Source of the DNA: Minisyncoccia bacterium
GTDB lineage: Bacteria > Patescibacteriota > Minisyncoccia > Phycocordibacterales > DATDWN01
Reading direction: 5' to 3'
DNA: 64,000 nt
Assembly: GCA_049297675.1 (NCBI GenBank)
Contig: JBAQUS010000004.1
Location: 13,188 to 77,187, forward strand
Of this stretch, positions 17,494 to 55,077 are shown piece by piece. The translations under genes and the position numbers were made by a program. Under the pieces are notes generated by a model, which ran no database searches, had not been told where the DNA came from, and saw nothing but the letters and a program-made list of their open reading frames with translations. The number at the start of each line of letters is the position of its first letter. Within the stretch, counting starts at the first letter, position 1.

Positions 17494-18290
17494 ATGTTTA
17501 AAAACAAACAAGATAAAGTTACCGGACCAACTCCCCCAGGAACAGGAGTCACGAGTAGAGCCTTTGGAAAACAATCTGGATCAACATCACCAACAATTTT
17601 TCCCTCTGACTCACTTGTTCCTGCGTCAATTAAGATCACTCCTTCCTTTATCATGTCGGGTTTAATAAAATGAGAATCACCAGCACCAGAAATAATAATG
17701 TCAGAAGTTTTAAGTAATTCATCTTTTTTTGTTGGATCAGTATTTTTATCTATTTGAGCATAGTTTATTTTCTTCATACTAAGCATGTTTGAAACAGGCT
17801 CACCCACCAATTTTCCAGAACCAATAATCAAAATTTTTTTGTCACTTAAATCAATACCGTGATATTTTATTATTTCTTCAACGGCTCTCGAAACAGGTGG
17901 GACTTTATCTGTTTGTCCTAACTTGTATTGTCTTTTAGCATTTTCACTTAGAACATCAATATCTAAATCAACTGGAACTAGATTTAAAACTTGATCAGTG
18001 TCAAGATTTTTAGGTAATGGAAGCTGTATAACAATACCAGAATAATTTCTCAATGTAATTTCATCAATAATTCTTTTTACATCTGTAAAAGTAACGTTCT
18101 CCGGATGTTCTGAAACAATTGCTTTAATACCCAAACCTTCAGCAAAACGACATTTCATATTTATAAACTGTCTACTACCTGGATCATTTCCAAATATAAT
18201 AAAGCAAACCTTCTTTTGAGAAGCTTTTGATAGATTATTTATTATTTGCTCTTTTAACAAAGAAGCGACTTGTTTTCCGTCAGCGATCAT
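17490..18290 (-). CDS. folD: Bifunctional methylenetetrahydrofolate dehydrogenase/cyclohydrolase
   Basis: C-terminal VTPVPGGVGPVT signature. NAD(P)-binding GSGKLVG. Confidence 0.7.
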   Translation of the reverse strand: MIADGKQVASLLKEQIINNLSKASQKKVCFIIFGNDPGSRQFINMKCRFAEGLGIKAIVSEHPENVTFTDVKRIIDEITLRNYSGIVIQLPLPKNLDTDQVLNLVPVDLDIDVLSENAKRQYKLGQTDKVPPVSRAVEEIIKYHGIDLSDKKILIIGSGKLVGEPVSNMLSMKKINYAQIDKNTDPTKKDELLKTSDIIISGAGDSHFIKPDMIKEGVILIDAGTSESEGKIVGDVDPDCFPKALLVTPVPGGVGPVTLSCLFLNI

Positions 18291-19165
18291 TATTCTCCCT
18301 TAAGTTTATAGAACAACTTATTACCATACCTCAAATCAATGTATTGTACAGGCAAATCCCCATCATTAGTTAAATTCAGATCTGGAGTTTTTAGTAAAGC
18401 CTCGAGATTATCATAAACTTTGGTGAGCGACTCGGCTGTGTCAAAATATATCTCCGTTCCACCAGAAAGAGTTAATGTAAACTCACCATTATCATTTCCG
18501 ACTATGTATAACGGATTTAGAGATAGCTCTTTGATTTTTGAAACAAAAATGTTTATGTCCCTAAACAAAGTGCTAGATGCCATATACTCCTTTCCTAAGA
18601 TAGATTCACCTGAAATTATTCCGTAATACTTAAAATAAGCGTCCCCGGAAAAATTTGGTGCCATGGCAAAAATAGTGCTATTTTGATCAATGAAATAACA
18701 ATTCTCCAAACTAGCAACCTCACTTATCACACCTTCAATTGTAGCATTATCCCTTCCAGGAACTGTGTTGCACCAAATAGCATAGGGCTTTCTCTCTCTA
18801 ATACTGACTATAAGTGTTTTAAAACCAGTTAATGAGATATCAATTTCTTCAATCCTTTTAAATGATTCCTTTAAATGATTATTTAAACCAGTCTTTGAGT
18901 ACCAAAAAAAGTTGTCTTTTGGAAAAAGCCACAGGTATGATCCTTCCAGATATTCTTTTGATTTTTTTCCTACTTCCTCCTCTGTCACTAAAACACCCCC
19001 AGAAAGCTTGATCTTTGATATTCGAAATTCAGAACGATGAGATATGTAGGAGAAGGCAGAAATAAAAATAATGACAAGCAAAACAGAAAGTCCTAATTTT
19101 ATCTGTCTTTGTTTTCTTTTTTTTCTTAAATATTCCTCTCTGTGTGTTAAATTGCTTATTGGCAT
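18290..19165 (-). CDS. Cell-division protein FtsQ/DivIB-like (TM plus POTRA)
   Basis: N-terminal basic tail, single TM, POTRA-like ISKIKLSGGVLVTEEEV...LIVSIRERKPYAIW. Immediately downstream of folD in the same orientation. Confidence 0.5.
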   Translation of the reverse strand: MPISNLTHREEYLRKKRKQRQIKLGLSVLLVIIFISAFSYISHRSEFRISKIKLSGGVLVTEEEVGKKSKEYLEGSYLWLFPKDNFFWYSKTGLNNHLKESFKRIEEIDISLTGFKTLIVSIRERKPYAIWCNTVPGRDNATIEGVISEVASLENCYFIDQNSTIFAMAPNFSGDAYFKYYGIISGESILGKEYMASSTLFRDINIFVSKIKELSLNPLYIVGNDNGEFTLTLSGGTEIYFDTAESLTKVYDNLEALLKTPDLNLTNDGDLPVQYIDLRYGNKLFYKLKGE

Positions 19166-38750: not shown

Positions 38751-39599
38751 TTATTGAGTTACAGTTTTCTTTTCGGATACTGTCTCAGTAAGACTATTTA
38801 GCTCATTTTTTAATACTGAAATTGGTGTAAAAATCCTAGTTTCGTTGTTTGAAAGTTTTATCCCAACAACATCACCAGAGAGATTAAATATCGGACTACC
38901 AGATACCATATCCCTTGAAGTAATATCAGTATTTATACTTGATATAACTTTTACTGTTGAAGTCCCAACACCAGAATCTTTGGTTGAAAGTGATGTAACT
39001 CTGCCTACTGTGACCGAGTTATCCGAAGTACCACCAAGACCTATAAGAGTCTGCCCGAGCTTAACTTCTGCTTCTGATATTACACTCGGCTCTAGATTTA
39101 TTTCCGATTTCTCAGGTAGGTTAGCTAGAAATAAAATAAAGTTTGTCTGTTTATCAATACCTTGGGGAATAATTTCAACAACTTCCCCATCGCTTAGTTC
39201 CGCAGAATATTTGTTTGTCTTCAAAACAGTTTTTCTGTCAGTAGCTATGCCCCCTCCGCCAATTATTATTCCTATCCCGTAAAAACTAGCCTCTTCTGTG
39301 AAAGGATTTCTCTCCCTTATCCTGACAACACTTTTTAAATTTTTGTTGATCGAATCTATTATTCTGTCTTCTTCCTTAACTACAACAGTAGTTATCTCCT
39401 TTTGGTTCGACTGAATGATGGACGGCGTTGCTGGCACGATCGTCTCAACAGTCTTTTCCACAATACTGTTTATGTTTCGTGTTATTTCTATCGGAGCCTC
39501 TTGAAGAAGAGCATTAGTCATTATTCCTGTGGCAATCGAGGTGACAAAACTAACAAGAAGTGTCAGCAGTACAATCTGATTTTTGTTAAGGTCCTCCAT
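38751..39599 (-). CDS. Trypsin-like serine protease (HtrA/DegP-like S1 family, no PDZ), membrane anchored
   Basis: N-terminal TM. GxSGSP-type active-site region DMVSGSPIFNLSGDVVGI. Confidence 0.55.
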   Translation of the reverse strand: MEDLNKNQIVLLTLLVSFVTSIATGIMTNALLQEAPIEITRNINSIVEKTVETIVPATPSIIQSNQKEITTVVVKEEDRIIDSINKNLKSVVRIRERNPFTEEASFYGIGIIIGGGGIATDRKTVLKTNKYSAELSDGEVVEIIPQGIDKQTNFILFLANLPEKSEINLEPSVISEAEVKLGQTLIGLGGTSDNSVTVGRVTSLSTKDSGVGTSTVKVISSINTDITSRDMVSGSPIFNLSGDVVGIKLSNNETRIFTPISVLKNELNSLTETVSEKKTVTQ

Positions 39600-39629
39600 A
39601 TATGCTGCATAATATCATTTCTTTTTATA

Positions 39630-40778
39630 ATGGTAAACGACTACATTTATGATAGTATAAAATGTATGAGTTTTGAATTACATACAATTGAAAATCCGAG
39701 TAGTCGAGATGACCAAGGTCACTTAAGTAGAAAGTTGGAAAAAATTAATCCTGGGAGAGACAGGGTTGAGGCTTTTAGAGTAGCCCGAGAAAGAATTCTC
39801 GGTAACCCTGATCTATACGAGAAATTTATAAAAGGCTTCATAAAAAGCAGTGATTCAATCCCTGTTGAGCTTGCCAGTGTACAAAATGAATTTCTATCAA
39901 ACTGTGTTGAATTATCTGATCAAGAGATAGACTCTCTGGTTAGACAATTCAACAAGGGATTAGCAGATTATCTAATAAAAAATTATGCAAAATTAGGAAT
40001 AGACTCGCAAAGAAAGGAGCATCTACTTTCTTCTCTTGATAGCCTTGGGATGAATTCAGTAGGAATAATTAGTGCAGTTGAATACATTAGGTCCAGAAAA
40101 AAACTATTCGAATTGGGTCCTGAACAGGATTATGGTTTTTATTTCGAGGATAGTCTAGATGCTAGATATAAAATTGATCTAATTGAAGTTTTATATTTGG
40201 ACGGGAAAGTAAATTCAATGAATTTAGTACAAATTAAATCGCGTAAACCCGATGACAACGAGATAGAAAAAATATTAGATGACCATAGGAGTTGGGTAGC
40301 AAGTTCTATGATGGATTTAGAGACTTTTGAGAGAGAATACACTGACGGTATTCCTGATAATTTGACTATAGAAATCATGTTAGAAAATGCTCAAGATGTC
40401 GAGGATTTACTTGTGGATGTCTGTACTGATCCAGACGGATTTAAACCTGATAAATTCATTGAAAAATTAGATCTGGGAAATCTAAATAACAAACAAAAAG
40501 CGTGGTTGCTACTTAAATACGGAAAAATCATGATTGAAAAAATTGCTAGTGCTGTCAAAAACCAAGTTCTTGATGCTAATCAAGCTGAAGAAATACTAGG
40601 AGCACTTAGCAAACTAACAAATAAAGTTATTGCAAAAGCAAAACTTCCAAAAAATTTTTCAACAGTAAGAAATATAAACTCAGTAATTGCTGTTGGTCCT
40701 GAGATTATTCGTGAAGAAAGAATACATGGAGATAGTATTTCAGACATACATAAAAAAGTTGTCGGTCTAAGTAATTGA
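39630..40778 (+). CDS. Hypothetical protein (382 aa), no recognisable domain
   Basis: Start placed at ATG 39630 to avoid overlap with the protease gene (the track ORF starts at 39402). Acidic, helical-looking sequence. Confidence 0.4.
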   Translation: MVNDYIYDSIKCMSFELHTIENPSSRDDQGHLSRKLEKINPGRDRVEAFRVARERILGNPDLYEKFIKGFIKSSDSIPVELASVQNEFLSNCVELSDQEIDSLVRQFNKGLADYLIKNYAKLGIDSQRKEHLLSSLDSLGMNSVGIISAVEYIRSRKKLFELGPEQDYGFYFEDSLDARYKIDLIEVLYLDGKVNSMNLVQIKSRKPDDNEIEKILDDHRSWVASSMMDLETFEREYTDGIPDNLTIEIMLENAQDVEDLLVDVCTDPDGFKPDKFIEKLDLGNLNNKQKAWLLLKYGKIMIEKIASAVKNQVLDANQAEEILGALSKLTNKVIAKAKLPKNFSTVRNINSVIAVGPEIIREERIHGDSISDIHKKVVGLSN

Positions 40779-45203: not shown

Positions 45204-45491
45204 ATAAGGAACTAAAGGGTTCTGAATGCGAACCCAAGCGGAACGCCCGAAGGGCGTGCCAAGGATTTTCGCCTGATTCTGCAAGAGAATTCGGGAATTT
45301 TGGTGTGCAAGCGTGCAAGGTTTTTTCGTCGAGACGCAGGTTCGAGCCAAAGATTTCTTTGGCATAGACCTTTTTAGTAAAAAGATCTGAATCAGAAGCG
45401 ATTCTGTCCAATGATTCCGCGTCTTTTAGCCATTGTTGGAAAGGTGCGAGCCAATCATTCTACTTGTGTGAAAGAGAGGTCATTTCTCATC

Positions 45492-45515
45492 TGTCAAACA
45501 TCCGATGTTTGACAG
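45492..45515. repeat. REP-like palindrome TGTCAAACATC-C-GATGTTTGACA (copy 1, rayT1-associated)
   Basis: Perfect palindrome with 11-nt arms, 41 nt beyond the rayT1 stop. Confidence 0.6.
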
Positions 45516-45555
45516 TAAGTTAGGGGTAGATTATTACCGAAAATGTTAAAACTTT

Positions 45556-46215
45556 TTATACTTCAAAAGTTTTGGTGTCAGCTTTTACCCCGCTATTTTT
45601 TACAAATTTATAATATTCATATTTATCCTCAAATTGGTCTAATACTACTTCCCTTTTTAATATTTCCTTCCAACGATTTTCTGTAACGTAATCCTGATAG
45701 CTAGACCACTCATATTTTTCTGGATTATTACTCCAATGTGAAAGCTCTTTTGGATTTAAATGAACATACGCAGATAAATGTAGTAGTTGTTCATTACTTT
45801 CAACATGAACTGCTTTATACGGACCTTCAAAAAGATGCCCCGAAATTTTATATTTAGTATTGAAGTATTTTGTATACGAGTTAAGTACACGTTGCATATA
45901 TTTCCCAGTTCCACCTTCTTCATTTTCACGAACTATTAGATGAAAATGGTTAGTCATCATCGCAAAAGAAACTAGGTCAACGTATCTTTTCGAAATTATC
46001 TTTTCGTAATCATCACTGTTAATGTCAAACATCCGATGTTTGACATAATTCGAGATCATTCTTGAAACTTGAGGAAAAATAACATTTGCTTGAAAGTATA
46101 AAATGAGAAATAAAAATCTAATTCTATCTCTATCATCCTTGAAGATGATTTTCTTCCCAACTCCCCGATTATATATATGATAGTGTTCCCCAATTTCAAT
46201 ATTATCTCTTCTCAT
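45556..46215 (-). CDS. IS200-like Y1/HUH transposase, RayT (REP-associated tyrosine transposase)-type, paralog 1
   Basis: YHIYNRGV N-terminus, HUH motif HFHLIV, and Y-containing C-terminal helix (GPYKAVHVE). REP palindromes on both sides. Homologous to 54366-55043. Confidence 0.65.
   Translation of the reverse strand: MRRDNIEIGEHYHIYNRGVGKKIIFKDDRDRIRFLFLILYFQANVIFPQVSRMISNYVKHRMFDINSDDYEKIISKRYVDLVSFAMMTNHFHLIVRENEEGGTGKYMQRVLNSYTKYFNTKYKISGHLFEGPYKAVHVESNEQLLHLSAYVHLNPKELSHWSNNPEKYEWSSYQDYVTENRWKEILKREVVLDQFEDKYEYYKFVKNSGVKADTKTFEV
46022..46046. repeat. REP-like palindrome ATGTCAAACATC-C-GATGTTTGACAT (copy 2) lying inside the rayT1 coding sequence
   Basis: 12-nt arms. Encodes VKHRMFD in rayT1; the same peptide is read from the opposite strand because of the palindrome. 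Confidence 0.55.
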
Positions 46216-46240
46216 AACCTCTCATCCTACATGGACAACT

Positions 46241-46277
46241 ATCCATCTGTCAAACATCGGATGTTTGACAGATGGAT
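46241..46277. repeat. REP-like extended palindrome ATCCATCTGTCAAACATC-G-GATGTTTGACAGATGGAT (copy 3; centre inverted relative to copies 1 and 2)
   Basis: Perfect palindrome with 18-nt arms, 26 nt upstream of the rayT1 start. Confidence 0.6.
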
Positions 46278-46401: not shown

Positions 46402-46499
46402 GGTGAGCAGAACGGGAGCGGCAATTCTTGCCCCTTTCGTCGCTCCTTGACACTCTAGTTTTTAGTTTACAAGCGCTTAAATGCGCAGAAGAGGTTAGC

Positions 46500-48038
46500 A
46501 TGTTTTACACTATCGCAATTTCCGTTCTCGTTGCAGTGACAATCTCGGTCCTGATCGTCGTCGGTTGGCTTATCTTCCGTGTCGTACAGACACGGAGGAG
46601 GACACCAGTCATTCATGATTGGGCGCGGAGGGATGATAGTCGCGAGACGACACCCTCCCCGACTCCTACCACGACATCCGGAATTGATGTCGACCTCACA
46701 CTGAATCCTCCCCGCCATACTCCGAAAGGAAATAGCGGAAGAGAACCCGAACCGTTGCCTCCATGTAAATGGAAAAAAGGCACGTTTCGTATCATCTACT
46801 GGGCGGTAATAATTCCGCTCGGAATGATATCTGTCTTCGTTCTGGAGTGGGGTATCCTATCGGGTCTGCCACTCACGTGGAATACCCTGTTGGAATTCAA
46901 CGCAACTTCAGTTGGGCTGACCCTTGTTGTTCTCTGGGTAGCCTACTTCTTGGACACATTCAAGATCGTCAAGTTCAATGAACTCGGCGGTCGTGTGGTA
47001 CTTGGTAGTTTCGAGTCCTACTCTGACGGGATAACTCTCGCACCGAGATGGATTACCGATCTGGTCAAGGTAACGAGAGCAACTGAAGAACTTGATCAAC
47101 CTCACAGTGACCCGTCAAAAATTTTCTGGGGAGACCTAAGCAAACTTCCAGACGGGAAAATCCCGGACGGTATGGTACTACCAATTCGTGTGCCATTCCT
47201 CCAGAGGTCAAGCGATGAAGACTTCGAAGTTCGCTGGCCACTTGAAACAGGAGAGGTCAAAACCAGAATTACAAAGGGCTATGACCTTCTTAGTGCAACG
47301 GATGCTCCTGTCGAGTATTCGATCGGAATCAGATTCATCGACATCCAACGTGTTATCGTTCGACTCAGGTCACTCAAAGCAGCCTACGACTTGGCAACAG
47401 ACTATGCAGAGACGCTCATAACGGGCACTTTGCAGAAAATGTCCGCTGCCGAAGCCCAAGTACTGAAACAGGAAATTTCAGTACATCTTGAGGAACAGAC
47501 GGACAACCGTGTTTTCCAATCGTACGGCTTCGTGATCGACTTCGTGACTTTGAAGTCAATCGGGACTTCGCACACAATCGCGGAATCGCGAGCGCAGGCG
47601 GCAGCAGCTGTCAACCTTGCGAATAAAACGGTTAGAGACGCAAAAGCTACAGCTAAGGCAACCGAACTTCAAGGTGCTTCTGTGGCTGGAGCTGAATTGG
47701 CACTACTCAACGCGAGGTCAGTAGGACTACGCAACATCGTCGACGCTGCGACTTCACGGTCAGGGGGAGTTGAACTCGCCAAAGCTATGGAAGCGGCACG
47801 CGCTATTCAGTTTGGCGCAGATTCGACAGTTGTTGTCCCAGGTGGAAACACTGGGGACGGTCTCGGACTCTTTGGCGCAGCGGTCGGTACAGCAATTAGT
47901 GCTTCGGCCGCACTTGGGAGAAAACCAGCTGGTGAAAAAGCTCTAACAGAGACCCAACCAGCACAACCAACAACTACTACAACACCCCCTGCACGTGGCG
48001 ACAGACGTGGCCATAAGAAAGGGGGTAAGAGGAGTTAG
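46500..48038 (+). CDS. SPFH/band-7 (stomatin/HflK/C-like) membrane protein, high-GC
   Basis: ATG 46500 with RBS GAAGAGG (the track ORF starts at an upstream TTG). TM helices, then VKFNELGGRVVLGSFESYSDGITLAPRWITDLVKV, then YGFVIDFVTLKSIG...AESRAQAAAAV...AEL coiled coil with Ala/Glu-rich tail. About 55% GC. Confidence 0.55.
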   Translation: MFYTIAISVLVAVTISVLIVVGWLIFRVVQTRRRTPVIHDWARRDDSRETTPSPTPTTTSGIDVDLTLNPPRHTPKGNSGREPEPLPPCKWKKGTFRIIYWAVIIPLGMISVFVLEWGILSGLPLTWNTLLEFNATSVGLTLVVLWVAYFLDTFKIVKFNELGGRVVLGSFESYSDGITLAPRWITDLVKVTRATEELDQPHSDPSKIFWGDLSKLPDGKIPDGMVLPIRVPFLQRSSDEDFEVRWPLETGEVKTRITKGYDLLSATDAPVEYSIGIRFIDIQRVIVRLRSLKAAYDLATDYAETLITGTLQKMSAAEAQVLKQEISVHLEEQTDNRVFQSYGFVIDFVTLKSIGTSHTIAESRAQAAAAVNLANKTVRDAKATAKATELQGASVAGAELALLNARSVGLRNIVDAATSRSGGVELAKAMEAARAIQFGADSTVVVPGGNTGDGLGLFGAAVGTAISASAALGRKPAGEKALTETQPAQPTTTTTPPARGDRRGHKKGGKRS

Positions 48039-48040
48039 TC

Positions 48041-49396
48041 ATGCCTATCGTCGCAATCGTTATCGTACTCCTCTTTCTCGTCTTCGGACGAAGGAAAGGA
48101 AACGATAGCAAATACATTCGAGAGTCAGAGGTCGTTGATACCAAGCCAAATGGTAAAACAGAGACGGAAAAACACACTCTGTGGTGGCACGTCGGCCACT
48201 ACAAACTCGTGTGGCTACAGCACTGGAGGAGGTCAACAACCCTCCGTGTCTCCGCCGGACTGCTTGCTTTCGGGCTGGGAGTCTGGATCTTCCCTCTAAC
48301 GAGGGAATGGTGGAGTTCGCAGTGGGTTAGCTTCGGCCTTTACCTAATTGCCGCTCTGGCCATTATCTGCCTTGGGTTCATGTTGGGCCCGGCGCAGAAA
48401 GTGCCGTTCGAGTACAGGCTCCGGCCTTTATTGCTCATCATTGGAATTGCGATCGCAGTCTACGGACTCGGTGCGAACACCAAGTTCGGTCAGAGCACCT
48501 GGTCGTGGATCGCCTCTCACTTCGGGAGAACAGATGGAAACATCGGTCTAACTCCAGAGGAGACAGCTGACCTACCGGACGGGTTCGTCGAGAGCGACAA
48601 TCCGAACCACTGGTCAAACCACGTCACCGATGAAAATCGTGATGTGGTCAACATGGTCCGGGCTGCCGTCCAGAGCGAACTTGTCCCAACCCATTGGGAC
48701 CTCGCCATGCAGATCTGCGGTATGGAATCGGCATGGTTTCGTCAGTTCGATGAGGACGGTAATGTTCTCAGAAACGTCAAAAACAATGACGGGTCAATCG
48801 ACTACGGAGTCTGTCAGATCAACTCCATATGGATGAAAAAGTCCAAGGAGTTGGGAGATGGTTTCCGGATCGACGGGCCGGCTGACGAAAACATTCGAAT
48901 GGCCATGTGGATCTGGACGAATCCAGAAACACGTGGGCCACGCGAGTGGACCGGTACGTACAACACAGCTCTTGCTGTTGTCCGCAATGCGCGGACAACG
49001 CCAGAGACTGTGAACGCACGTCGAACTCCAGAGAGGTCACCGGCTGAACAGGAGACTGTTCAGGCTGGGATCGCACTGGTCTCACAAACTGAGCCAATTC
49101 ACCAGCAACGCAACCCACAAAGAGAGGTGTCTGTCACAGCCATGTTTCCAGGATGGGTCACCGACAAGTCCTCCATGACCTGCGACCTCGAAGAGGACGC
49201 AGAAATCGAGGCGGTCGGTGAGCCTGGAATATTTTACTGGAGTGACACAAACTTCAGTACGAACATCCTAAAGCCTGGAGAAACTGCTTCACTTGCTGGA
49301 TTCAAATGCGTTGCAGTCAGATACTTTTCCCCAACGTTTGGGGGAAAACTGACTGAGGGTCAGAGCCCTTACGCAATCGTGAGACGATACAAATAA
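48041..49396 (+). CDS. 4-TM membrane protein with a lysozyme-like (C-type lysozyme/SLT-like) catalytic domain; possible VirB1-like peptidoglycan hydrolase
   Basis: MQICGMESAWF...DGSIDYGVCQINSIWMKK parallels hen lysozyme AKFESNF...DGSTDYGILQINSRWW (catalytic Glu and Asp regions). RBS AGGAG. About 55% GC. Confidence 0.55.
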   Translation: MPIVAIVIVLLFLVFGRRKGNDSKYIRESEVVDTKPNGKTETEKHTLWWHVGHYKLVWLQHWRRSTTLRVSAGLLAFGLGVWIFPLTREWWSSQWVSFGLYLIAALAIICLGFMLGPAQKVPFEYRLRPLLLIIGIAIAVYGLGANTKFGQSTWSWIASHFGRTDGNIGLTPEETADLPDGFVESDNPNHWSNHVTDENRDVVNMVRAAVQSELVPTHWDLAMQICGMESAWFRQFDEDGNVLRNVKNNDGSIDYGVCQINSIWMKKSKELGDGFRIDGPADENIRMAMWIWTNPETRGPREWTGTYNTALAVVRNARTTPETVNARRTPERSPAEQETVQAGIALVSQTEPIHQQRNPQREVSVTAMFPGWVTDKSSMTCDLEEDAEIEAVGEPGIFYWSDTNFSTNILKPGETASLAGFKCVAVRYFSPTFGGKLTEGQSPYAIVRRYK

Positions 49397-49492: not shown

Positions 49493-49525
49493 CAGAAAAC
49501 CGCTCAAGTTGTGAGCGGTTTTCTG
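49493..49525 (-). terminator. 14-bp hairpin CAGAAAACCGCTCA-AGTTG-TGAGCGGTTTTCTG, downstream of the pilin array (minus strand)
   Basis: Perfect stem. U residues lie partly within the stem. Confidence 0.5.
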
Positions 49526-49536
49526 TGACTAACTTG

Positions 49537-49827
49537 TTAATAGTTTCGTATTATAGCGTTGACTGCTGCGTTATTAGGTGCCACCCCGAAAGTGTTAAGG
49601 ACGAAGTGAACCAACCCATAAACCGAAAACATTATGACCATTCCCACTATTCCCCAGACCATGGAATCTCTGGACTCCTTTCTGGTATTTCCTTTATCGT
49701 CTGCATCAGAAGATAAAAACTTGATGGCCCCCCATACAAAGTACAGAAAGGCTATAGCAAACATGAGGAAAATCAATGGATTCAGTATAACGTTTGCTAC
49801 ATTACGTAGAAAAGGAACAATAGTCAT
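49537..49827 (-). CDS. TrbC/VirB2-like pilin paralog 1 (no signal peptide; two hydrophobic helices)
   Basis: FVWGAIKFLSSDADDKGNTRKESRDSMVWGIVGMVIMFSVYGLV conserved core shared with paralogs 2-7. Confidence 0.45.
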   Translation of the reverse strand: MTIVPFLRNVANVILNPLIFLMFAIAFLYFVWGAIKFLSSDADDKGNTRKESRDSMVWGIVGMVIMFSVYGLVHFVLNTFGVAPNNAAVNAIIRNY

Positions 49828-49852
49828 GTACTAGTTTCGTTAACTAGACTGA

Positions 49853-50206
49853 TTACAGACCTGTAACTGTTGGAACTGTACCAGTTGTGATGTTTTGAAC
49901 ACCAAATGTAGATTGTAACCATGCAACCAATCCGTAGATTGAGATCATGACTGCTATTGCAATCACACCCCAAATCATCTGGTTTCTACCTGCCTCCTGT
50001 GCCTTAGGATCCCCAGCTGAACGTAGGAATGTAACCAAGCCCCAGAAGAAGAACACTATCGCTAGACCGAAAACTATAGGGATAAGTGTTCTAACTGTTG
50101 TTGCAATGAAAGTAAGAAGTGCTTGCAAACCTGTTAAGTTTGGAGTCTGGGCGAAAGCCAAGACTGGAGCAAGAAAAGATCCTACTGAAATGACAATTTT
50201 TTTCAT
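49853..50206 (-). CDS. TrbC/VirB2-like pilin paralog 2 (signal peptide ending AFAQ)
   Basis: Signal peptide, then FFFWGLVTFLRSAGDPKAQEAGRNQMIWGVIAIAVMISIYGLVAWL. Confidence 0.5.
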   Translation of the reverse strand: MKKIVISVGSFLAPVLAFAQTPNLTGLQALLTFIATTVRTLIPIVFGLAIVFFFWGLVTFLRSAGDPKAQEAGRNQMIWGVIAIAVMISIYGLVAWLQSTFGVQNITTGTVPTVTGL

Positions 50207-50311
50207 TTTTTTGTTAATATTACGATTAATAATGCTATTATAGTACTTTTTAAAAATAATGCAAGTCCTCGGTCAAATAGACTCTGTGGATTAGTTTACT
50301 TCCAGTTATAC

Positions 50312-50689
50312 TTAGTTTGGACTAAAACATGTTTCAAAGTTAGTACAAGACTCAATACTAAAGACATTTCCAAGAAATGCCACTATTCCAAATAATGATA
50401 GAATGATGAACATGCCTATAATACCCCATAACATCCTTTGTTTTCCTTCCTCACGGGATTTAGAATCACCAGAATTTAGTACAAATTGTGCCACACCCCA
50501 TATAAAGAAAAGCAAAGCAACACTGCCTAGGATTGGTACTAATATATCAACTAAATCCTTAAATTCCTGAGCAAAAGTCTGAATAGTTTGAGCCGAAAGA
50601 ATGGTTGGAAAAATAGACCAAGACAAAGACACTACAAAAAATATTCTGCTGGTGTAACCATGAGAAAATATAAATTTTCTTACCATCAA
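50312..50689 (-). CDS. TrbC/VirB2-like pilin paralog 3 (signal peptide ending LSAQ)
   Basis: FFIWGVAQFVLNSGDSKSREEGKQRMLWGIIGMFIILSLFGIVAFL. Confidence 0.5.
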   Translation of the reverse strand: MMVRKFIFSHGYTSRIFFVVSLSWSIFPTILSAQTIQTFAQEFKDLVDILVPILGSVALLFFIWGVAQFVLNSGDSKSREEGKQRMLWGIIGMFIILSLFGIVAFLGNVFSIESCTNFETCFSPN

Positions 50690-50711
50690 AATAGTTAATG
50701 TTACAAAATTA

Positions 50712-51071
50712 TTATAAAGAAGTACAGATCATTGACCCGATTGGACACCCTGTTTGTGGTATCCCTAGAGCAGTATTTATAAATGCCACTATTCCGAATA
50801 TAGACATTATTACGAACATACCAACTACACCCCATATCATCCTTTGTTTTCCCTCTTCTCTCAGTTTGGTATCGCCAGCATTTAGAATAAATGTAGCTAC
50901 ACCCCACATAAAGAACATAAAAGCCAAACCGAAGACGATGGGTATAAGAAGTCGAACTATATTTCCGAATTCAGTCACTAGTGTTCTTACCACGGCTAGA
51001 CTCTGGGCAAAAATAAAAACAGGAAATAAAAGTTGTGGTGCATAAATTAAAAATTTTAGATTTTTCTTCAT
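50712..51071 (-). CDS. TrbC/VirB2-like pilin paralog 4 (signal peptide ending FAQ)
   Basis: FFMWGVATFILNAGDTKLREEGKQRMIWGVVGMFVIMSIFGIVAFI. Confidence 0.5.
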   Translation of the reverse strand: MKKNLKFLIYAPQLLFPVFIFAQSLAVVRTLVTEFGNIVRLLIPIVFGLAFMFFMWGVATFILNAGDTKLREEGKQRMIWGVVGMFVIMSIFGIVAFINTALGIPQTGCPIGSMICTSL

Positions 51072-51140
51072 ATTTTTTATTTATTTCTATTTATTACTAT
51101 CAGTTATGCATTATAATACATACAACACAAAAGTACAAGG

Positions 51141-51524
51141 CTAAAATCTAATGAAAACAAAGGCAGGATCAGCATCAGTAGAGCCATTCAACCCTACAGC
51201 GTTTATAACAACACCAATGATTGCTCTTACAGATAGTAGGACAAATAAAGCAATTGTTCCCCAAAGCATATATTTTCTTCCATTTTCTATTTCCGTTTTA
51301 TTTCCAGATCGAATAAAAAATTTAGAAAGACCCCAAATAAATACTAAAACAGCTAAAGAAAGAAAGGCTGGCAGGATTGTGTTGTAAATAAGTTCTCCTG
51401 TGGTGAAGGCGGCATCTCCAAATGTGCCACCCGGAGGTATAAGTTGGGCATAAGCAATAATCGGAAAAACACTGACAACAAGGTTTGAAATGAACCTGTA
51501 GTGCTTTAAAAAAAAAGTTTTCAT
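51141..51524 (-). CDS. TrbC/VirB2-like pilin paralog 5 (signal peptide ending AYAQ)
   Basis: VFIWGLSKFFIRSGNKTEIENGRKYMLWGTIALFVLLSV. Confidence 0.45.
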   Translation of the reverse strand: MKTFFLKHYRFISNLVVSVFPIIAYAQLIPPGGTFGDAAFTTGELIYNTILPAFLSLAVLVFIWGLSKFFIRSGNKTEIENGRKYMLWGTIALFVLLSVRAIIGVVINAVGLNGSTDADPAFVFIRF

Positions 51525-51536
51525 TATTGATAAATT

Positions 51537-51899
51537 TTAACCAACAGTGATTAGTTGACTAACCGTATTTCTAACCAGCTCTGATATGGCCACAGCTCCG
51601 AGGAGAATTCCTCCGCCTATGAGAGCCCAGAGAAGTCTCTGTTTTGCCTCGCCAAGTTTTTTCTCATTACCTTGGGCAGTTACAAAAGTAAAGCCTGCAT
51701 AAATAATGTACATTACAACCACCACGGCTCCTATAGGCAAAACCACGTTGTTAAGGAGTGCAGTTAAAATATCAATGAGATTGCTTCCTGCTTTGGTGGC
51801 CGGATTGGTAATGGTAATATTTTGAGCGAACAAAACTACTGGCAAAATAATATTAGCGAGTATCAGAAGAATTTTTGTGTATTTTTTATATATTTTCAT
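51537..51899 (-). CDS. TrbC/VirB2-like pilin paralog 6 (signal peptide ending LFAQ)
   Basis: MYIIYAGFTFVTAQGNEKKLGEAKQRLLWALIGGGILLGAVAI. Confidence 0.45.
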   Translation of the reverse strand: MKIYKKYTKILLILANIILPVVLFAQNITITNPATKAGSNLIDILTALLNNVVLPIGAVVVVMYIIYAGFTFVTAQGNEKKLGEAKQRLLWALIGGGILLGAVAISELVRNTVSQLITVG

Positions 51900-51903
51900 A
51901 TTA

Positions 51904-52314
51904 TTAACCTAGAAAAGTTGGAATATTATCATCTAATAATGCTGTGGTGATAAGTCTAACTAACACCCAGGCGATTATTATAATAGCAATACCCTGTACA
52001 ACTTTAAGAAGCATACCCGCGGCTTTTGCCCGCTCCGAAGCACTCTCTCCACCCATCATAAACCTAAAGCCAGCCCAAGCGATAACTATAACAGAAAAAC
52101 CTAGGGCAAACTTAGTTCCTTCGTTTGTCACTCGTCTTACGGCTCTTATCAGGTCATCAAATGTACACTCTCCTGCTATCCCACCAACTCCGGGACACTC
52201 GTAAACAAACTGGGCATGGCTTACTAGTGGTGTAAAAAGAAAAAGAAAAACAAGAAACAGGAGAATTTTTGATGCCAAATTATTTAAAAATGTACTTCTC
52301 ATTTTGTTAAACAT
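51904..52314 (-). CDS. TrbC/VirB2-like pilin paralog 7 (signal peptide ending SHAQ; Cys pair in the mature N-terminus)
   Basis: VIAWAGFRFMMGGESASERAKAAGMLLKVVQGIAIIIIAWVLV. Confidence 0.45.
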   Translation of the reverse strand: MFNKMRSTFLNNLASKILLFLVFLFLFTPLVSHAQFVYECPGVGGIAGECTFDDLIRAVRRVTNEGTKFALGFSVIVIAWAGFRFMMGGESASERAKAAGMLLKVVQGIAIIIIAWVLVRLITTALLDDNIPTFLG

Positions 52315-53603
52315 TATGATTTGATTAGAGCAGTCAGTTCTGTTTCCGCTCTGTTTAAGGCATCAGATGCTCTAGACCTTCCACTAGTTATGCTCTCAAT
52401 CATATCACGAAACAGATTTGAAGTTGCCTGTGGTTCAGGATCAATCCACGACCTGGAGATTAAGGCAGAATCATAGAATACTTGCATGTGAGCCTCTGGA
52501 GGCTTCACAGAAAGCATGTCTCTTCTTACAGGAGGTAGGTTTGTAATGCCACCTATTCCCTTTATAGCTTCGACCTCTGTCAGAGCGTTTAGGGCTATAA
52601 AGGAGGCCTGGATATTTTTGGATTGCTTTACAATGGATATACCGTAGAGATGTCCGAAAACTACTTTCTTTTTGCTATCTCTTATTTGTGGAACCGAAGT
52701 GACACCGTAATTTAGATTTGGATTTTTTTGTTGAATACCAACTAGCTCACTAGCAAAACCAAAATAAATAGCCAAATTTCCGGAGAGAAAGAAGTTGGAT
52801 GAAGATGGAAGGGACCTATTCCAGGAATATGAGACAAGGTTTGGATTAGAAAATTGGATGTAAAAATCTGTTGCTGACTGGCTCGGAGTCCTAGGATATC
52901 CGAACTGAAGGTTAAGCACTGTATCAAGCCCATTTTCCTCCCTCTGTATTATTGGTGTTCCAGCTTGGAGCATGAGCATTATGAGTAACTCCTTGGCACT
53001 TGTGATATTTCTCCATTCACCGAAAGCTATAGTTGATTGAGAAATATTGGCCTGACCGTCTTTTTTGGTGATCTTTGGAACCAAGTCTGGAATCTCGTCC
53101 CAGTATTTAGGAGGGGACGCAATAAAGTTGCTGGAGAATAAGTCTCTATTCCAATACATAACCATGGGATCAATAATGAATGGCAAAGCTAATATGCCTT
53201 CTGGAGTAAGAAACAATTCCCCTTCTTCTATAAACCTGTCCTTGAAATCCCTCTCTGGATAAAATTCCGATGGTATTGGATAAAGTTTATTTCTATTTTT
53301 GTAAACCAAATCCTCTCTAAGAATAACTATGTCTGGCCCTCTACCTTCTGCCAGAGCCTCGACAAAGTCTCTATCAAAATCTGATGGGTCCTTTCTGACA
53401 TACATCACTCTTATGTTTTTATTTCCAGAAAGTGACGAAGCTATATAAGCATTTGTAAATGCATCGTCCGAAATAGTTCCCCATGCGACTAGACCAGCAG
53501 ATACATTTGCTGTACCGGTATTTTTACTCAAGGCAAAAACCATAATACCTGCAACTATGGCCACAGAGAAGACGGCTATGACAGCTATTTTAAACGTACT
53601 CAT
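52314..53603 (-). CDS. ABC-transporter extracellular solute-binding protein, family 1 (MalE-like), TM-anchored
   Basis: N-terminal TM anchor. VMYVRKD...ALAEGRGPDIV, MYWNRDLF and WIDPEP motifs typical of SBP_bac_1. Stop/start overlap with pilin 7. Confidence 0.55.
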   Translation of the reverse strand: MSTFKIAVIAVFSVAIVAGIMVFALSKNTGTANVSAGLVAWGTISDDAFTNAYIASSLSGNKNIRVMYVRKDPSDFDRDFVEALAEGRGPDIVILREDLVYKNRNKLYPIPSEFYPERDFKDRFIEEGELFLTPEGILALPFIIDPMVMYWNRDLFSSNFIASPPKYWDEIPDLVPKITKKDGQANISQSTIAFGEWRNITSAKELLIMLMLQAGTPIIQREENGLDTVLNLQFGYPRTPSQSATDFYIQFSNPNLVSYSWNRSLPSSSNFFLSGNLAIYFGFASELVGIQQKNPNLNYGVTSVPQIRDSKKKVVFGHLYGISIVKQSKNIQASFIALNALTEVEAIKGIGGITNLPPVRRDMLSVKPPEAHMQVFYDSALISRSWIDPEPQATSNLFRDMIESITSGRSRASDALNRAETELTALIKS

Positions 53604-53640: not shown

Positions 53641-54168
53641 TTACATCTTCTTAAAGATTAATCCGTAGTGATGTGCTCCGGCGGAAATTTCCCTGTCTAT
53701 ACTAAAGCCCTGCTTTTCAAAAAGCTCTTTGGCTTTTGGTTTTTTAACAACATCGATCGGTTTTGGACCAATTCCACCGAATGAATCTGACCAGTCTATT
53801 ACCAATACCCTTCCCCCGGGTTTTAAAATTCTTTTGGCCTCTTTTATTGCCCCGACTTTATCATCTAGCTGAAAAAGAAGATTGCAAATAAAAACCAGAT
53901 CAACAGAAGAATCCCTAAGTTTTGCTCCATTTGGCTTTTCGACATTACCCCATACTACTTCTATGTTATAAAGGCCTTCTTTTGTTGAGTTATTTTTCAA
54001 TCTGGTCAGTAGCTCTTTATCTACGTCAATAGCGTAAACCCTACCAGTTGAAATGAGCGCCCTTGAAGCAGCCATGGAGTAATGTCCCGAGCCAGAACCA
54101 AAATCTGCAATATCCATCCCGGCCTGTATTCCACACTGCTCTATGTTTTTTATTGGATCGGAGAACAT
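53641..54168 (-). CDS. Class I SAM-dependent methyltransferase
   Basis: Motif I VADFGSGSGHYS. Post-I acidic residue (YAIDVD). Motif II-like LVFICNLLF. Confidence 0.65.
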   Translation of the reverse strand: MFSDPIKNIEQCGIQAGMDIADFGSGSGHYSMAASRALISTGRVYAIDVDKELLTRLKNNSTKEGLYNIEVVWGNVEKPNGAKLRDSSVDLVFICNLLFQLDDKVGAIKEAKRILKPGGRVLVIDWSDSFGGIGPKPIDVVKKPKAKELFEKQGFSIDREISAGAHHYGLIFKKM

Positions 54169-54341: not shown

Positions 54342-54362
54342 TTACTAGGGTAACCCTAGTAA
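54342..54362. repeat. REP-like palindrome TTACTAGGG-TAA-CCCTAGTAA (rayT2-associated, downstream side), followed by TTACTAGTAA
   Basis: Perfect 9-3-9 palindrome 4 nt beyond the rayT2 stop. Confidence 0.6.
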
Positions 54363-54365
54363 TTA

Positions 54366-55043
54366 CTAGTAACTATCTTTATATTCTAACCAATCAGTTA
54401 TATTATCATTAAAATCAAAGATACTTGAAAAATACTCAGGGAAATTAGTTTTGTCTAAAATCATACCCGCTTCCCTCTTTTGTCCGACATAATCTAAATA
54501 ACTAGAACAATCATAATTCGATAGAAATTTTTTAGCTTTACTAATGTTTTTTATTCCAGATTCTTTCCAGTCATATTCAATTAATTTAACTGGATTAAGA
54601 TGAATGTAAGAAAATAAATATTTCAAATATTCATCAGAGTCAGCATGTTCTGCTTTATATGTACCCTGAAACAACGAACCCACTCTATCATTTAATTTAT
54701 TAAAGTAGGTAGAATAGCCCGTAGTCAATTTTTCCATAAACATAGCTGTACCGCCCTCAACAATTTCTCTAACAAGAATATGAAAATGATTTGGCATTAA
54801 AACCCATGCTCCTATTGCAACGAGTTGCTCGCCCCTGTTAATATCTTTCAATGGTAAGTCTATTGTTGTGCTGTACCTATAAGGAAGAGTATTGTTTGCA
54901 AGATATAAGAGTCTAATAAATCTCTTATAATCATTCTGTGAAATAAAAATATCGCGCTTTTCAACTCCTCGATTATATATATGGTAAAACTCGCCTTCAG
55001 ATATGACTATTTTTCTTTGCATAGAAGCACTATATACTAACAA
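54366..55043 (-). CDS. IS200-like Y1/HUH transposase, RayT-type, paralog 2
   Basis: FYHIYNRGV, HUH motif HFHILV, GTYKAEHAD and YIHLNP motifs. Homologous to 45556-46215. Flanked by its own palindromes. Confidence 0.65.
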   Translation of the reverse strand: MLVYSASMQRKIVISEGEFYHIYNRGVEKRDIFISQNDYKRFIRLLYLANNTLPYRYSTTIDLPLKDINRGEQLVAIGAWVLMPNHFHILVREIVEGGTAMFMEKLTTGYSTYFNKLNDRVGSLFQGTYKAEHADSDEYLKYLFSYIHLNPVKLIEYDWKESGIKNISKAKKFLSNYDCSSYLDYVGQKREAGMILDKTNFPEYFSSIFDFNDNITDWLEYKDSY

Positions 55044-55046
55044 CTC

Positions 55047-55077
55047 TCATCTTACTAGGGTAACCCTAGTAAGATGA
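55047..55077. repeat. REP-like palindrome TCATCTTACTAGGG-TAA-CCCTAGTAAGATGA (rayT2-associated, upstream side)
   Basis: Perfect 14-3-14 palindrome 4 nt upstream of the rayT2 start. Same core as 54342-54362. Confidence 0.6.

What the first reader, a model, noticed from the sequence alone, without database searches (positions are those of the whole stretch)
49537..52314. Seven tandem TrbC/VirB2-like pilin paralogs without any T4SS ATPase or channel gene in the vicinity
Seven consecutive co-oriented small ORFs (96-136 aa) share one architecture. Each has a signal peptide ending in A-x-A/FAQ, a variable 25-35 aa segment, hydrophobic helix 1 and a short charged loop. The loop carries the conserved motif [FW]WG...F.....GD.K..E.G.[KR]..[MLI][IL]WG. 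Each then has hydrophobic helix 2. This is the VirB2/TrbC pilin layout. The first copy lacks the signal peptide. The paralogs are highly diverged in the mature N-terminal segment, which suggests diversification of a surface-exposed region (antigenic or adhesive variation). No VirB4, VirB11 or VirD4 genes are present. Only a solute-binding protein and a methyltransferase follow.
Basis: partly seen in the sequence, partly recalled or inferred. Interest (0 to 1): 0.7.

Follow-up and report, generated by a model that had tools for sequence, protein, structure and literature searches.

The report
Conserved VirB2-like pilin operon, Patescibacteria
Seven neighbouring small genes in an ultrasmall (Patescibacteria) bacterium encode conjugation-type pilin-like membrane proteins, a kind of gene array already described for this phylum. 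The new point is that the set is an ancient, fixed-order operon rather than a rapidly varying cassette.

Summary
Seven co-oriented minus-strand ORFs (49537-52314; 96-136 aa) all match the T4SS pilin models PF18895 and/or PF04956. Six have signal peptides, and all have two hydrophobic helices around a charged loop. No VirB4, VirD4, VirB6 or VirB11 gene lies in the 64-kb window or within ±10 kb of the array in 27 related loci.

The source is a Minisyncoccia (Paceibacteria-type Patescibacteria) MAG. VirB2-like pilin arrays of 2-11 genes are already published for this phylum (PMC12102498, PMC10633639), so this is a new member of a known kind.

What I add:
- The array belongs to a conserved block: gyrA, methyltransferase, membrane-anchored solute-binding protein, then 5-7 pilins.
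- Positions 1, 2, the penultimate and the last have position-specific orthologues across species.
- The last, signal-peptide-less pilin is conserved (14/14 six-gene arrays), so it is not a truncation.
- The seventh gene here comes from a P4/P5 duplication.
- dN/dS against a close relative is 0.05-0.24.

This argues against an antigenic-variation cassette and for a fixed multi-subunit set. That set is probably assembled by an unlinked T4SS (inferred).

A GC-rich convergent gene next to the array encodes a lysozyme/SLT-like membrane protein, a possible VirB1 analogue.

The parts
53641..54168 (-). Class I SAM methyltransferase (175 aa), a conserved upstream neighbour of the SBP-pilin operon
   Evidence: Pfam Methyltransf_11/25/31. 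Homologue directly upstream of the SBP in 21 related loci, with gaps mostly -8 to +37 nt.
52314..53603 (-). Membrane-anchored family-1 solute-binding protein (429 aa). Its stop codon overlaps the start of pilin P1 (TAATG).
   Evidence: PF01547/PF13416 and a distant MalE-like match. An SBP homologue sits directly upstream of the first pilin in 23 of 24 related loci that have at least 400 nt of upstream sequence; the gap is at most 10 nt in 17 of the 22 loci where it could be measured. No ABC permease or ATPase lies nearby.
51904..52314 (-). Pilin P1 (136 aa): longest N-terminal exposed segment with a Cys pair; position-1 class
   Evidence: PF18895 23.2 bits (below cut-off) and TrbC 16.9 bits. 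Best hits in other loci are at position 1 in 19/19. Orthologues pass PF18895 at 36-54 bits, and one carries an IPT/TIG domain. At least two Cys occur in all 14 position-1 orthologues, exactly two in 11.
51537..51899 (-). Pilin P2 (120 aa): TrbC/VirB2-like; position-2 class
   Evidence: PF04956 TrbC 30.8 bits, above the gathering score of 27.9. NF045849 34.6 bits. Best hits at position 2 in 21/22.
51141..51524 (-). Pilin P3 (127 aa): labile middle class
   Evidence: PF18895 25.8 bits. Top hits are at position 3. Only 50% identical to its L036 orthologue.
50712..51071 (-). Pilin P4 (119 aa): one of a duplicated pair with P5
   Evidence: PF18895 38.8 bits. 46% identical to P5. A 164-nt direct DNA repeat at 74% identity links 50375-50538 and 50781-50944. 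P4 and P5 both hit position 4 of six-gene arrays among their strongest matches, though P4's two top hits are at position 5.
50312..50689 (-). Pilin P5 (125 aa; TTG start, or ATG one codon later): duplicate partner of P4
   Evidence: PF18895 45.1 bits.
50207..50311 (-). 105-nt intergenic gap before P6, containing a perfect TATAAT. Possible internal promoter for P6-P7 (inferred).
   Evidence: Sequence read. A gap of roughly 90-130 nt recurs in the middle of the array in nearly all related loci, though in most six-gene arrays it lies one gene further upstream, before position 4. The promoter scan did not list a site here.
49853..50206 (-). Pilin P6 (117 aa): most conserved member, with a short classical signal peptide (..AFA|Q). 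Candidate major subunit (inferred).
   Evidence: PF18895 35.1 bits. 95% identical to its L036 orthologue, dN/dS 0.05 and the lowest dS at 0.46. Best hits at the penultimate position in 17/22. A-Q after the hydrophobic stretch in 11/14 orthologues.
49537..49827 (-). Pilin P7 (96 aa): conserved class without a signal peptide; always last in the array
   Evidence: PF18895 31.2 bits. The last gene starts at HMM position about 20-38 in nearly all arrays. No signal peptide in 14/14 six-gene arrays. Best hits at the last position in 17/22.
49494..49524 (-). 13-bp hairpin (AGAAAACCGCTCA / TGAGCGGTTTTCT) just after the P7 stop. Likely terminator of the operon.
   Evidence: Read from the sequence. Not listed by the consensus scan because the T run lies inside the extended stem.
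48041..49396 (+). Convergent GC-rich gene (451 aa): N-terminal TM segments plus a lysozyme/SLT-like domain. Possible VirB1-type wall hydrolase; the association is positional and its function is inferred.
   Evidence: The profile of 8 position-equivalent proteins hits C-type lysozymes at the catalytic Glu and the D-x-G-x-x-Q-I-N region (E 1.2e-3). The L036 orthologue (39% identical) passes PF01464 SLT at 24.3 vs 21.3 bits. GC 0.53 and GC3 0.60.
46428..48038 (+). Convergent GC-rich gene (536 aa), membrane protein of unknown family. Included only as a positional neighbour.
   Evidence: No Pfam or NCBIfam hit. The ORF at the same position in L036 is SPFH/Band_7 (45.5 bits), but there is no detectable similarity to the window protein.

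Best explanation
The region is the pilin part of a conserved operon in a Minisyncoccia/Paceibacteria-type Patescibacteria genome. The gene order is (methyltransferase), membrane-anchored solute-binding protein, then a fixed set of ancient VirB2/TrbC-like pilin paralogues. The canonical set appears to be six; here there are seven because the fourth was duplicated.

Shown:
- family membership
- the layout of signal peptide plus a two-helix hairpin with a charged loop
- tight operon packing
- conserved synteny next to gyrA
- position-specific orthology
- purifying selection
- absence of T4SS ATPase and channel genes nearby

Inferred mechanism:
- P1-P6 are inserted by Sec and cut by signal peptidase I after ..A, leaving Gln at +1.
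- P7 inserts without cleavage.
- All sit in the membrane as N-out/C-out hairpins with the charged loop in the cytoplasm.
- A VirB4-type T4SS encoded elsewhere in the genome extracts them and assembles a pilus-like surface structure of defined mixed composition.
- P6 is the abundant core subunit. P1, which has the long Cys-containing or domain-bearing N-terminus, and the other members are specialised or minor subunits.
- The structure serves contact with, or exchange with, the host cell of this presumably epibiotic bacterium.
- The adjacent lysozyme/SLT-like membrane protein may play the VirB1 role.
For: Family membership:
- Pfam PF18895 for all seven, four of them above cut-off, and PF04956 above cut-off for P2.
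- NCBIfam Mycoplasma-ICE pilin-like NF045849 for all seven, below cut-off.
- Hydropathy and signal-peptide layout.
- The AlphaFold model is a two-helix hairpin with pLDDT about 90 over the core.

Source and conservation:
- The source is named a Minisyncoccia MAG.
- 27 related loci show the same block LacB3 - GyrA - MT - SBP - 5-7 pilins, with tight gene spacing.
- Positional orthology holds.
- The signal-peptide-less last member is conserved.
- dN/dS is 0.05-0.24. P6 is 95% identical to its orthologue and has the lowest dS.
- P1-class fusion to an IPT/TIG domain in L028 supports an exposed N-terminus.

Neighbour: the convergent gene is lysozyme/SLT-like.

Literature:
- 441 VirB2-like arrays of 2-11 genes occur in Patescibacteria, with mean identity 25%. 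Pilins lie near virB4 in only 1,135 of 1,948 assemblies (PMC12102498).
- In Southlakia epibionticum, six divergent VirB2-like pilins are essential for epibiotic growth, and a lysozyme homologue lies in the T4SS cluster (PMC10633639, PMC12857230).
Against: - No VirB4, VirB6, VirD4 or VirB3 gene lies in the 64-kb window or within ±10 kb in 27 related loci.
- I could not check whether this genome has a T4SS at all.
- Sequence and fold searches against solved structures did not retrieve T4SS pilins. They returned only generic helical hairpins.
- P1 and P3 are below the Pfam cut-offs.
- Heteromeric assembly, the major-subunit role of P6 and any role for the SBP are inferences.
- Single-ORF fusions of 2-16 pilin domains exist in this family. 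These are awkward for a classical homopolymeric pilus.
Confidence: 0.6

Rival explanations
1. Variation cassette. The paralogues are interchangeable alternative pilins. Their exposed segments diversify to evade recognition or to fit different host strains.
For: - Paralogues are only 11-46% identical.
- N-terminal and C-terminal tails are more variable than the core: 71% and 55% vs 81% identity to L036.
- Middle positions 3-4 are evolutionarily labile, with duplications and fusions.
- P3 and P5 are only 50-58% identical to their L036 orthologues.
Against: - Positions 1, 2, penultimate and last are position-specific orthologues across species.
- The gene number is nearly constant at 5-7.
- dN/dS is below 0.25 for every gene and about 0.2 for the tails.
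- No silent cassettes, invertible elements or repeats suited to recombination were found. The only long repeat is the P4/P5 duplication.
Confidence: 0.15
2. T4SS-independent envelope complex. The hairpin proteins form a defined hetero-oligomeric membrane assembly together with the co-translated solute-binding protein, for example an uptake conduit or envelope scaffold, and do not form a pilus.
For: - The array is never next to T4SS genes in 28 loci.
- The SBP is translationally coupled to P1 and is present in 23 of 24 loci.
- No ABC permease or ATPase is available for the SBP.
- The 1:1 gene set is fixed, and polyproteins with 2-16 fused pilin domains exist.
Against: - Homology is to conjugative pilins.
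- In Saccharibacteria a comparable six-pilin array sits inside the essential T4SS cluster.
- Unlinked pilin genes are common in Patescibacteria genomes that do have VirB4.
- There is no direct evidence of any SBP-pilin contact. The one apparent fusion (L011) is an artefact of masked N bases.
Confidence: 0.15
3. Decaying remnant of a lost conjugative element or T4SS: non-functional leftovers.
For: There are no T4SS machinery genes nearby, and the last copy lacks a signal peptide.
Against: - All seven ORFs are intact.
- Strong purifying selection acts on them.
- Order and synteny are conserved across many species.
- The signal-peptide-less member is conserved in 14/14 arrays.
- The sequence is identical in four assemblies.
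Confidence: 0.02

Closest known systems
VirB2-like pilin arrays of Patescibacteria (Quinonero-Coronel et al. 2025, PMC12102498; the six essential pilins in the Southlakia epibionticum T4SS cluster, Wang et al. 2023, PMC10633639)
   Same: - Tandem PF18895/PF04956 genes in a Patescibacteria genome.
- 2-11 genes per array.
- Low identity within an array (published mean 25%, maximum 54%; here 11-46%).
- A canonical number of six, matching the Southlakia array.
   Different: - This array is not in or near a T4SS cluster. It sits in a gyrA - methyltransferase - SBP block that is conserved in Paceibacteria-type genomes.
- The published text I read mentions neither the SBP coupling, nor the position-specific orthology, nor the conserved signal-peptide-less last member (term search).
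[quoted passage not shown]
TrbC/VirB2 conjugative pilins of Gram-negative T4SS (Pfam PF04956)
   Same: - A signal peptide, then two hydrophobic helices around a short charged loop.
- A mature size of about 75-100 aa.
- P2 passes the family model.
- Predicted cleavage leaves Gln at +1, as I recall for Agrobacterium VirB2. This rests on my own knowledge and was not tested.
   Different: - Normally a single gene sits directly upstream of virB3-virB4. Here there are seven paralogues and no machinery genes.
- The organism is a monoderm.
- Cyclisation and pilus formation are unknown.
Pilin-like proteins of monoderm conjugation systems (Mycoplasma ICE Mbov_0395 family NF045849; PrgF of pCF10, bioRxiv 10.64898/2025.12.18.695078)
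   Same: They are small two-helix VirB2-like proteins from the MPF-FATA class, the class from which the Patescibacteria T4SS is thought to derive. All seven window proteins hit NF045849.
   Different: The hits are below the curated cut-off (best 34.6 vs 40 bits). Those systems carry one pilin gene inside a conjugation cluster.
VirB2 paralogue amplification in Bartonella and Anaplasma (antigenic variation model cited in PMC12102498)
   Same: Several diverged VirB2 paralogues lie in tandem.
   Different: Here the paralogues are ancient, ordered and under purifying selection. Only P4/P5 look like a recent duplication.

Membership tests
T4SS pilins (Pfam PF18895 T4SS_pilin / PF04956 TrbC-VirB2) | Match to the family HMM above the curated gathering score | tested here: met
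   - P4-P7 pass PF18895 at 31.2-45.1 bits (cut-off 26.6).
- P2 passes PF04956 at 30.8 bits (cut-off 27.9).
- P3 (25.8) and P1 (23.2) fall just below.
- Position-1 orthologues in other loci pass at 36.5-54.2 bits.
T4SS pilins (Pfam PF18895 T4SS_pilin / PF04956 TrbC-VirB2) | N-terminal signal peptide, then two hydrophobic helices separated by a short charged loop | tested here: met
   Hydropathy segments and ..A-Q ends in six of seven; P7 has the two helices only. The model is a helix-loop-helix with a high-confidence core. No SignalP or TMHMM was available, so cleavage sites are read from the sequence.
T4SS pilins (Pfam PF18895 T4SS_pilin / PF04956 TrbC-VirB2) | Fold or sequence similarity to experimentally solved T4SS pilins | tested here: inconclusive
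   - The profile against PDB sequences gave no pilin, only chance hits at E of 0.14 or worse.
- Foldseek gave nothing at E of 0.001 or better.
The fold is too simple to discriminate.
T4SS pilins (Pfam PF18895 T4SS_pilin / PF04956 TrbC-VirB2) | Encoded with T4SS machinery (VirB4, VirB3, VirB6, coupling protein) | tested here: not met
   None in the 64-kb window, in about 5 kb beyond its left end, or within ±10 kb in 27 related loci. The rest of the genome could not be searched.
T4SS pilins (Pfam PF18895 T4SS_pilin / PF04956 TrbC-VirB2) | Polymerises into an extracellular pilus | not testable with these tools
   This needs multimer modelling, proteomics or cryo-ET.
Patescibacteria VirB2-like pilin arrays (PMC12102498) | Two or more adjacent PF18895/PF04956 genes in a Patescibacteria genome, with low identity within the array | tested here: met
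   Seven adjacent genes at 11-46% identity. The source is named Minisyncoccia bacterium. Related loci are Parcubacteria/Paceibacteria MAGs.
Patescibacteria VirB2-like pilin arrays (PMC12102498) | The genome also encodes a Patescibacteria-clade VirB4 | not testable with these tools
   Only the window and short flanks are accessible. The paper reports 2,474 virB4 genes in 3,035 genomes, so presence is likely but not shown.
Antigenic-variation pilin cassettes (Bartonella/Anaplasma type) | Recent lineage-specific amplification | tested here: not met
   The best hit falls at the same array position in 98, 100, 91 and 80% of comparisons for positions 1, 2, 5 and 6. Only P4/P5 are a local duplication.
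Antigenic-variation pilin cassettes (Bartonella/Anaplasma type) | Diversifying selection on exposed segments | tested here: not met
   Pooled dN/dS is 0.19 for the N-terminal segment, 0.22 for the C-terminal tail and 0.08 for the core. Caveats: one pairwise comparison, dS near saturation, and no site-level test.
SBP-dependent ABC importer | The SBP is encoded with a permease and an ATPase | tested here: not met
   The SBP is PF01547/PF13416. No permease or ABC ATPase lies in the window or in the related loci.

The most novel reading that the evidence does not exclude
The six-class pilin set does not build a conventional T4SS pilus. Instead it forms a defined hetero-oligomeric envelope structure that works with the co-translated, membrane-anchored solute-binding protein, and perhaps with the adjacent lysozyme-like enzyme, as a host-tapping uptake device. 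It would operate independently of, or only loosely coupled to, VirB4. This would be a repurposing of the VirB2 hairpin, consistent with the existence of single-chain polyproteins of up to 16 pilin domains.
Probability: 0.12. Interest if true: 0.75.

Novelty: new member of a known kind. Interest (0 to 1): 0.35.

Why it matters
Patescibacteria make up a large share of uncultured bacterial diversity and appear to live on other cells. In the one species tested, the T4SS and its pilin array are essential, yet their function is unknown.

This locus shows that in Paceibacteria-type genomes the pilin set is an ancient operon with a fixed order. It is coupled to a solute-binding protein and separated from the T4SS machinery. 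That shifts the working model from interchangeable variants for different hosts to a multi-subunit structure of defined composition. It also names concrete candidates to test:
- P6 as the core subunit
- P1 as the domain-bearing subunit
- P7 as a leaderless member
- the SBP and the lysozyme-like neighbour as partners

The finding itself is not a new kind of system.

Tried and rejected
1. The search for related loci with the seven-paralogue alignment failed because no stretch was conserved enough. It worked with a closer alignment.
2. Exact look-ups of several window proteins failed because the called starts differ. Walking beyond the window gave only about 5 kb on the left and nothing on the right, so the genome's T4SS could not be located.
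4. An apparent SBP-pilin fusion in L011 is an artefact of a masked run of N bases.
5. I first read the GC-rich 46.4-49.4 kb stretch as a recent island inserted between two IS200-like genes. I rejected this because GC-rich convergent ORFs sit at the same position in at least 16 related loci.
6. The guess that the 536-aa ORF is SPFH/Band 7 is not supported for the window protein itself. The ORF at the same position in L036 is Band_7.
7. The consensus promoter scan found no more sites than shuffled sequence does (20 vs 18.1). Promoter statements therefore rest on reading the sequence only.


Full report
**1. What is there**

The window has seven co-oriented minus-strand ORFs between 49537 and 52314. 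I number them in the direction of transcription:

| Name | Coordinates | Length |
|---|---|---|
| P1 | 51904-52314 | 136 aa |
| P2 | 51537-51899 | 120 aa |
| P3 | 51141-51524 | 127 aa |
| P4 | 50712-51071 | 119 aa |
| P5 | 50312-50689 | 125 aa |
| P6 | 49853-50206 | 117 aa |
| P7 | 49537-49827 | 96 aa |

- All seven hit Pfam PF18895 (T4SS_pilin). P4-P7 score above the gathering cut-off. P2 passes PF04956 (TrbC/VirB2) at 30.8 vs 27.9 bits. P1 and P3 fall just short.
- NCBIfam gives sub-threshold hits of all seven to NF045849, the pilin-like conjugal transfer protein of Mycoplasma ICEs.
- Hydropathy shows an N-terminal signal-like segment ending in ..A-Q in P1-P6, then two hydrophobic helices. 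P7 has only the two helices.
- The paralogues are 11-46% identical.
- Gaps between genes are 4-105 nt.
- A 13-bp hairpin follows the P7 stop, and a second hairpin with a T run serves the convergent gene.
- The same array is found in four independent assemblies.

**2. Surroundings**

Pfam scans of about 50 ORFs of at least 120 aa in the window gave only housekeeping genes. Examples are GyrA, TopA, ClpB, IF-2, SerRS, RelA/SpoT, DprA, ParB, MurB, signal peptidase I and S1. No VirB4, VirD4, VirB6 or VirB11 was found.

Directly upstream, with its stop overlapping the P1 start (TAATG), lies a membrane-anchored family-1 solute-binding protein (52314-53603). A small SAM methyltransferase (53641-54168) lies before that, and gyrA further up.

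Downstream and convergent are two GC-rich ORFs, 48041-49396 and 46428-48038. Each of two IS200/Y1-like ORFs (45556-46215 and 54366-55043; 38% identical) is bracketed by its own palindromes.

**3. Source and related loci**

The protein database names P4 as a hypothetical protein of a 'Minisyncoccia bacterium' MAG. Minisyncoccia is a class of Minisyncoccota, i.e. Patescibacteria/CPR.

A scan of species-representative genomes returned 27 loci, all from Parcubacteria/Paceibacteria-type MAGs. I called ORFs in these loci and searched them with an HMM built from the paralogues. Nearly every locus has 5-7 tandem pilin genes, the last one short.

Clustering the neighbours shows a conserved block:

- Lactamase_B_3, a small ORF, GyrA, methyltransferase, SBP, pilins, two convergent ORFs, then often IF-2.
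- An SBP homologue is directly upstream of the first pilin in 23 of 24 loci with enough upstream sequence.
- MT-SBP-P1 spacing is mostly -8 to +37 nt.
- No VirB4-like gene appears among the large ORFs of these loci.

The family is very large: 47,305 clusters at 50% identity match the profile at E of 0.001 or better.

**4. The paralogues are old and ordered**

For the window genes, the best hits in other loci fall at these positions:

- P1: position 1 in 19/19.
- P2: position 2 in 21/22.
- P6: penultimate position in 17/22.
- P7: last position in 17/22.
- P3: its strongest hits are at position 3.
- P4 and P5: both hit position 4 of six-gene arrays among their strongest matches, although P4's two top hits are at position 5.

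P4 and P5 share a 164-nt DNA repeat at 74% identity, so they are a local duplication. The close relative L036 also has it.

Across 14 six-gene arrays, the best hit lies at the same position in 98, 100, 50, 28, 91 and 80% of comparisons for positions 1-6. The ends of the array are therefore fixed classes and the middle is labile.

Class features are conserved:

- Position 1 is the longest and carries at least two Cys in every array (exactly two in 11 of 14).
- Position 5 (the P6 class) has a short signal peptide ending A|Q in 11/14.
- Position 6 (the P7 class) lacks a signal peptide in 14/14.

In L028 the position-1 pilin carries an IPT/TIG domain in front of the pilin domain. This fits an exposed N-terminus.

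**5. Selection**

I compared each gene with its orthologue in the close relative L036.

| Measure | Result |
|---|---|
| Whole-gene dN/dS | 0.05-0.24 |
| Pooled dN/dS, signal peptide | 0.42 |
| Pooled dN/dS, N-terminal segment | 0.19 |
| Pooled dN/dS, core | 0.08 |
| Pooled dN/dS, C-terminal tail | 0.22 |
| P6 | 95% identical, lowest dS (0.46) |
| P3 and P5 | 50-58% identical |

dS is near saturation for most genes and this is a single comparison. It therefore excludes relaxed or gene-wide positive selection, but not site-specific selection.

**6. Interpretation**

The family assignment (VirB2/TrbC-like pilins) and the absence of nearby T4SS machinery are supported. The proposed ongoing antigenic diversification is not.

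The best reading is a fixed, multi-subunit pilin set co-expressed with an SBP. A T4SS encoded elsewhere would assemble it. That last step is inferred from the literature:

- Most Patescibacteria genomes encode VirB4.
- Pilins are near virB4 in only 1,135 of 1,948 assemblies.
- 441 arrays of 2-11 genes have been described, with mean identity 25% (PMC12102498).
- In Southlakia epibionticum, six divergent pilins inside the T4SS cluster are essential (PMC10633639, PMC12857230).

The recurring intergenic gap in the middle of the array (105 nt with a perfect TATAAT before P6 here), the high conservation of P6 and its low dS suggest that P6 is the abundant subunit. This is inference only.

Fold and sequence searches against solved structures could not confirm or deny similarity to known pilins, because the fold is a plain helical hairpin.

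**7. The neighbour**

The 451-aa convergent protein aligns with position-equivalent proteins of seven other loci around an invariant Glu and a D-x-G-x-x-Q-I-N motif.

- The profile hits C-type lysozymes at E 1.2e-3.
- The L036 orthologue passes PF01464 SLT.

A VirB1-type wall hydrolase function is plausible. The Southlakia T4SS cluster also contains an essential lysozyme homologue. The 536-aa protein remains unassigned.

**8. Unexplained**

The two convergent genes have GC 0.51-0.53 and GC3 0.48-0.60. Other window genes have GC3 of mostly 0.25-0.36.

The ORFs at the same position are GC 0.50-0.57 in at least 16 related loci whose overall GC is 0.37-0.48. These proteins diverge far faster than the pilins: 39% identity or none against L036.

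A positionally conserved, fast-evolving, persistently GC-rich module in AT-rich genomes has no explanation here.

**9. Verdict**

This is a new member of a published kind (Patescibacteria VirB2-like pilin arrays).

The details I add are operon structure, SBP coupling, positional orthology, a conserved leaderless member and a lysozyme-like neighbour. I did not find the SBP or gyrA association in a term search of PMC12102498. I read only matched passages of the papers consulted, so the other details may be described elsewhere.

Interest is moderate to low for the finding as stated.

Noticed in passing
window 46428-49396 (+); same position in L005-L010, L012, L016, L018-L020, L026, L030, L031, L036: The two ORFs convergent on the pilin array are strongly GC-rich (GC 0.51-0.53, GC3 0.48-0.60, against GC3 of mostly 0.25-0.36 elsewhere in the window). 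The ORFs at the same position are GC 0.50-0.57 in at least 16 related AT-rich genomes, yet they diverge much faster than their neighbours. One MAG contig breaks exactly at this boundary. The cause is unknown.
   Followed up: partly
P0012 (820 aa), P0011 (336 aa), P0027 (1775 aa); L011 8954-9889, L014 8574-9311, L029 8943-9746: Single ORFs carry 2-16 tandem pilin domains, with a signal peptide only on the first. These are pilin 'polyproteins'. Two-domain fusions occur at the middle positions of related arrays. They are hard to reconcile with a simple homopolymeric pilus unless the chains are processed.
   Followed up: partly
L028 7752-8534: The position-1 pilin carries an N-terminal IPT/TIG (Ig-like) domain (PF01833, 37.5 bits). 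This suggests that the class can display adhesin-type domains.
   Followed up: partly
window 45488-46274 and 54342-55072: Two IS200/Y1-transposase-like ORFs (219 and 225 aa, 38% identical) are each flanked by their own perfect palindromes (CTGTCAAACATCCGATGTTTGACAG and TTACTAGGGTAACCCTAGTAA). They look like minimal IS200/IS605- or REP-associated units. They lie on either side of the MT-SBP-pilin-GC-rich block, but similar ORFs are only sporadic in related loci.
   Followed up: partly
window 52314-53603: The solute-binding protein has an N-terminal membrane anchor, and no ABC permease or ATPase lies anywhere in the 64-kb window. It is an orphan SBP translationally coupled to the first pilin.
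   Followed up: partly
window 49853-50206 (P6) vs L036 3155-3508: P6 has a much lower synonymous divergence (dS 0.46) than the other six pilins (1.1-2.4) and the highest GC among them. Possible causes are codon-usage constraint from high expression or recent exchange.
   Followed up: no
window 39402-40778 (+), 842-1969 (-), 2899-3768 (-), 18290-19165 (-), 14281-14958 (+): Several sizeable ORFs have no Pfam family above threshold. The ORF at 39402-40778 has only a weak NLBH hit. The ORF at 842-1969 is listed as DUF8173 in the contig look-up.
   Followed up: no
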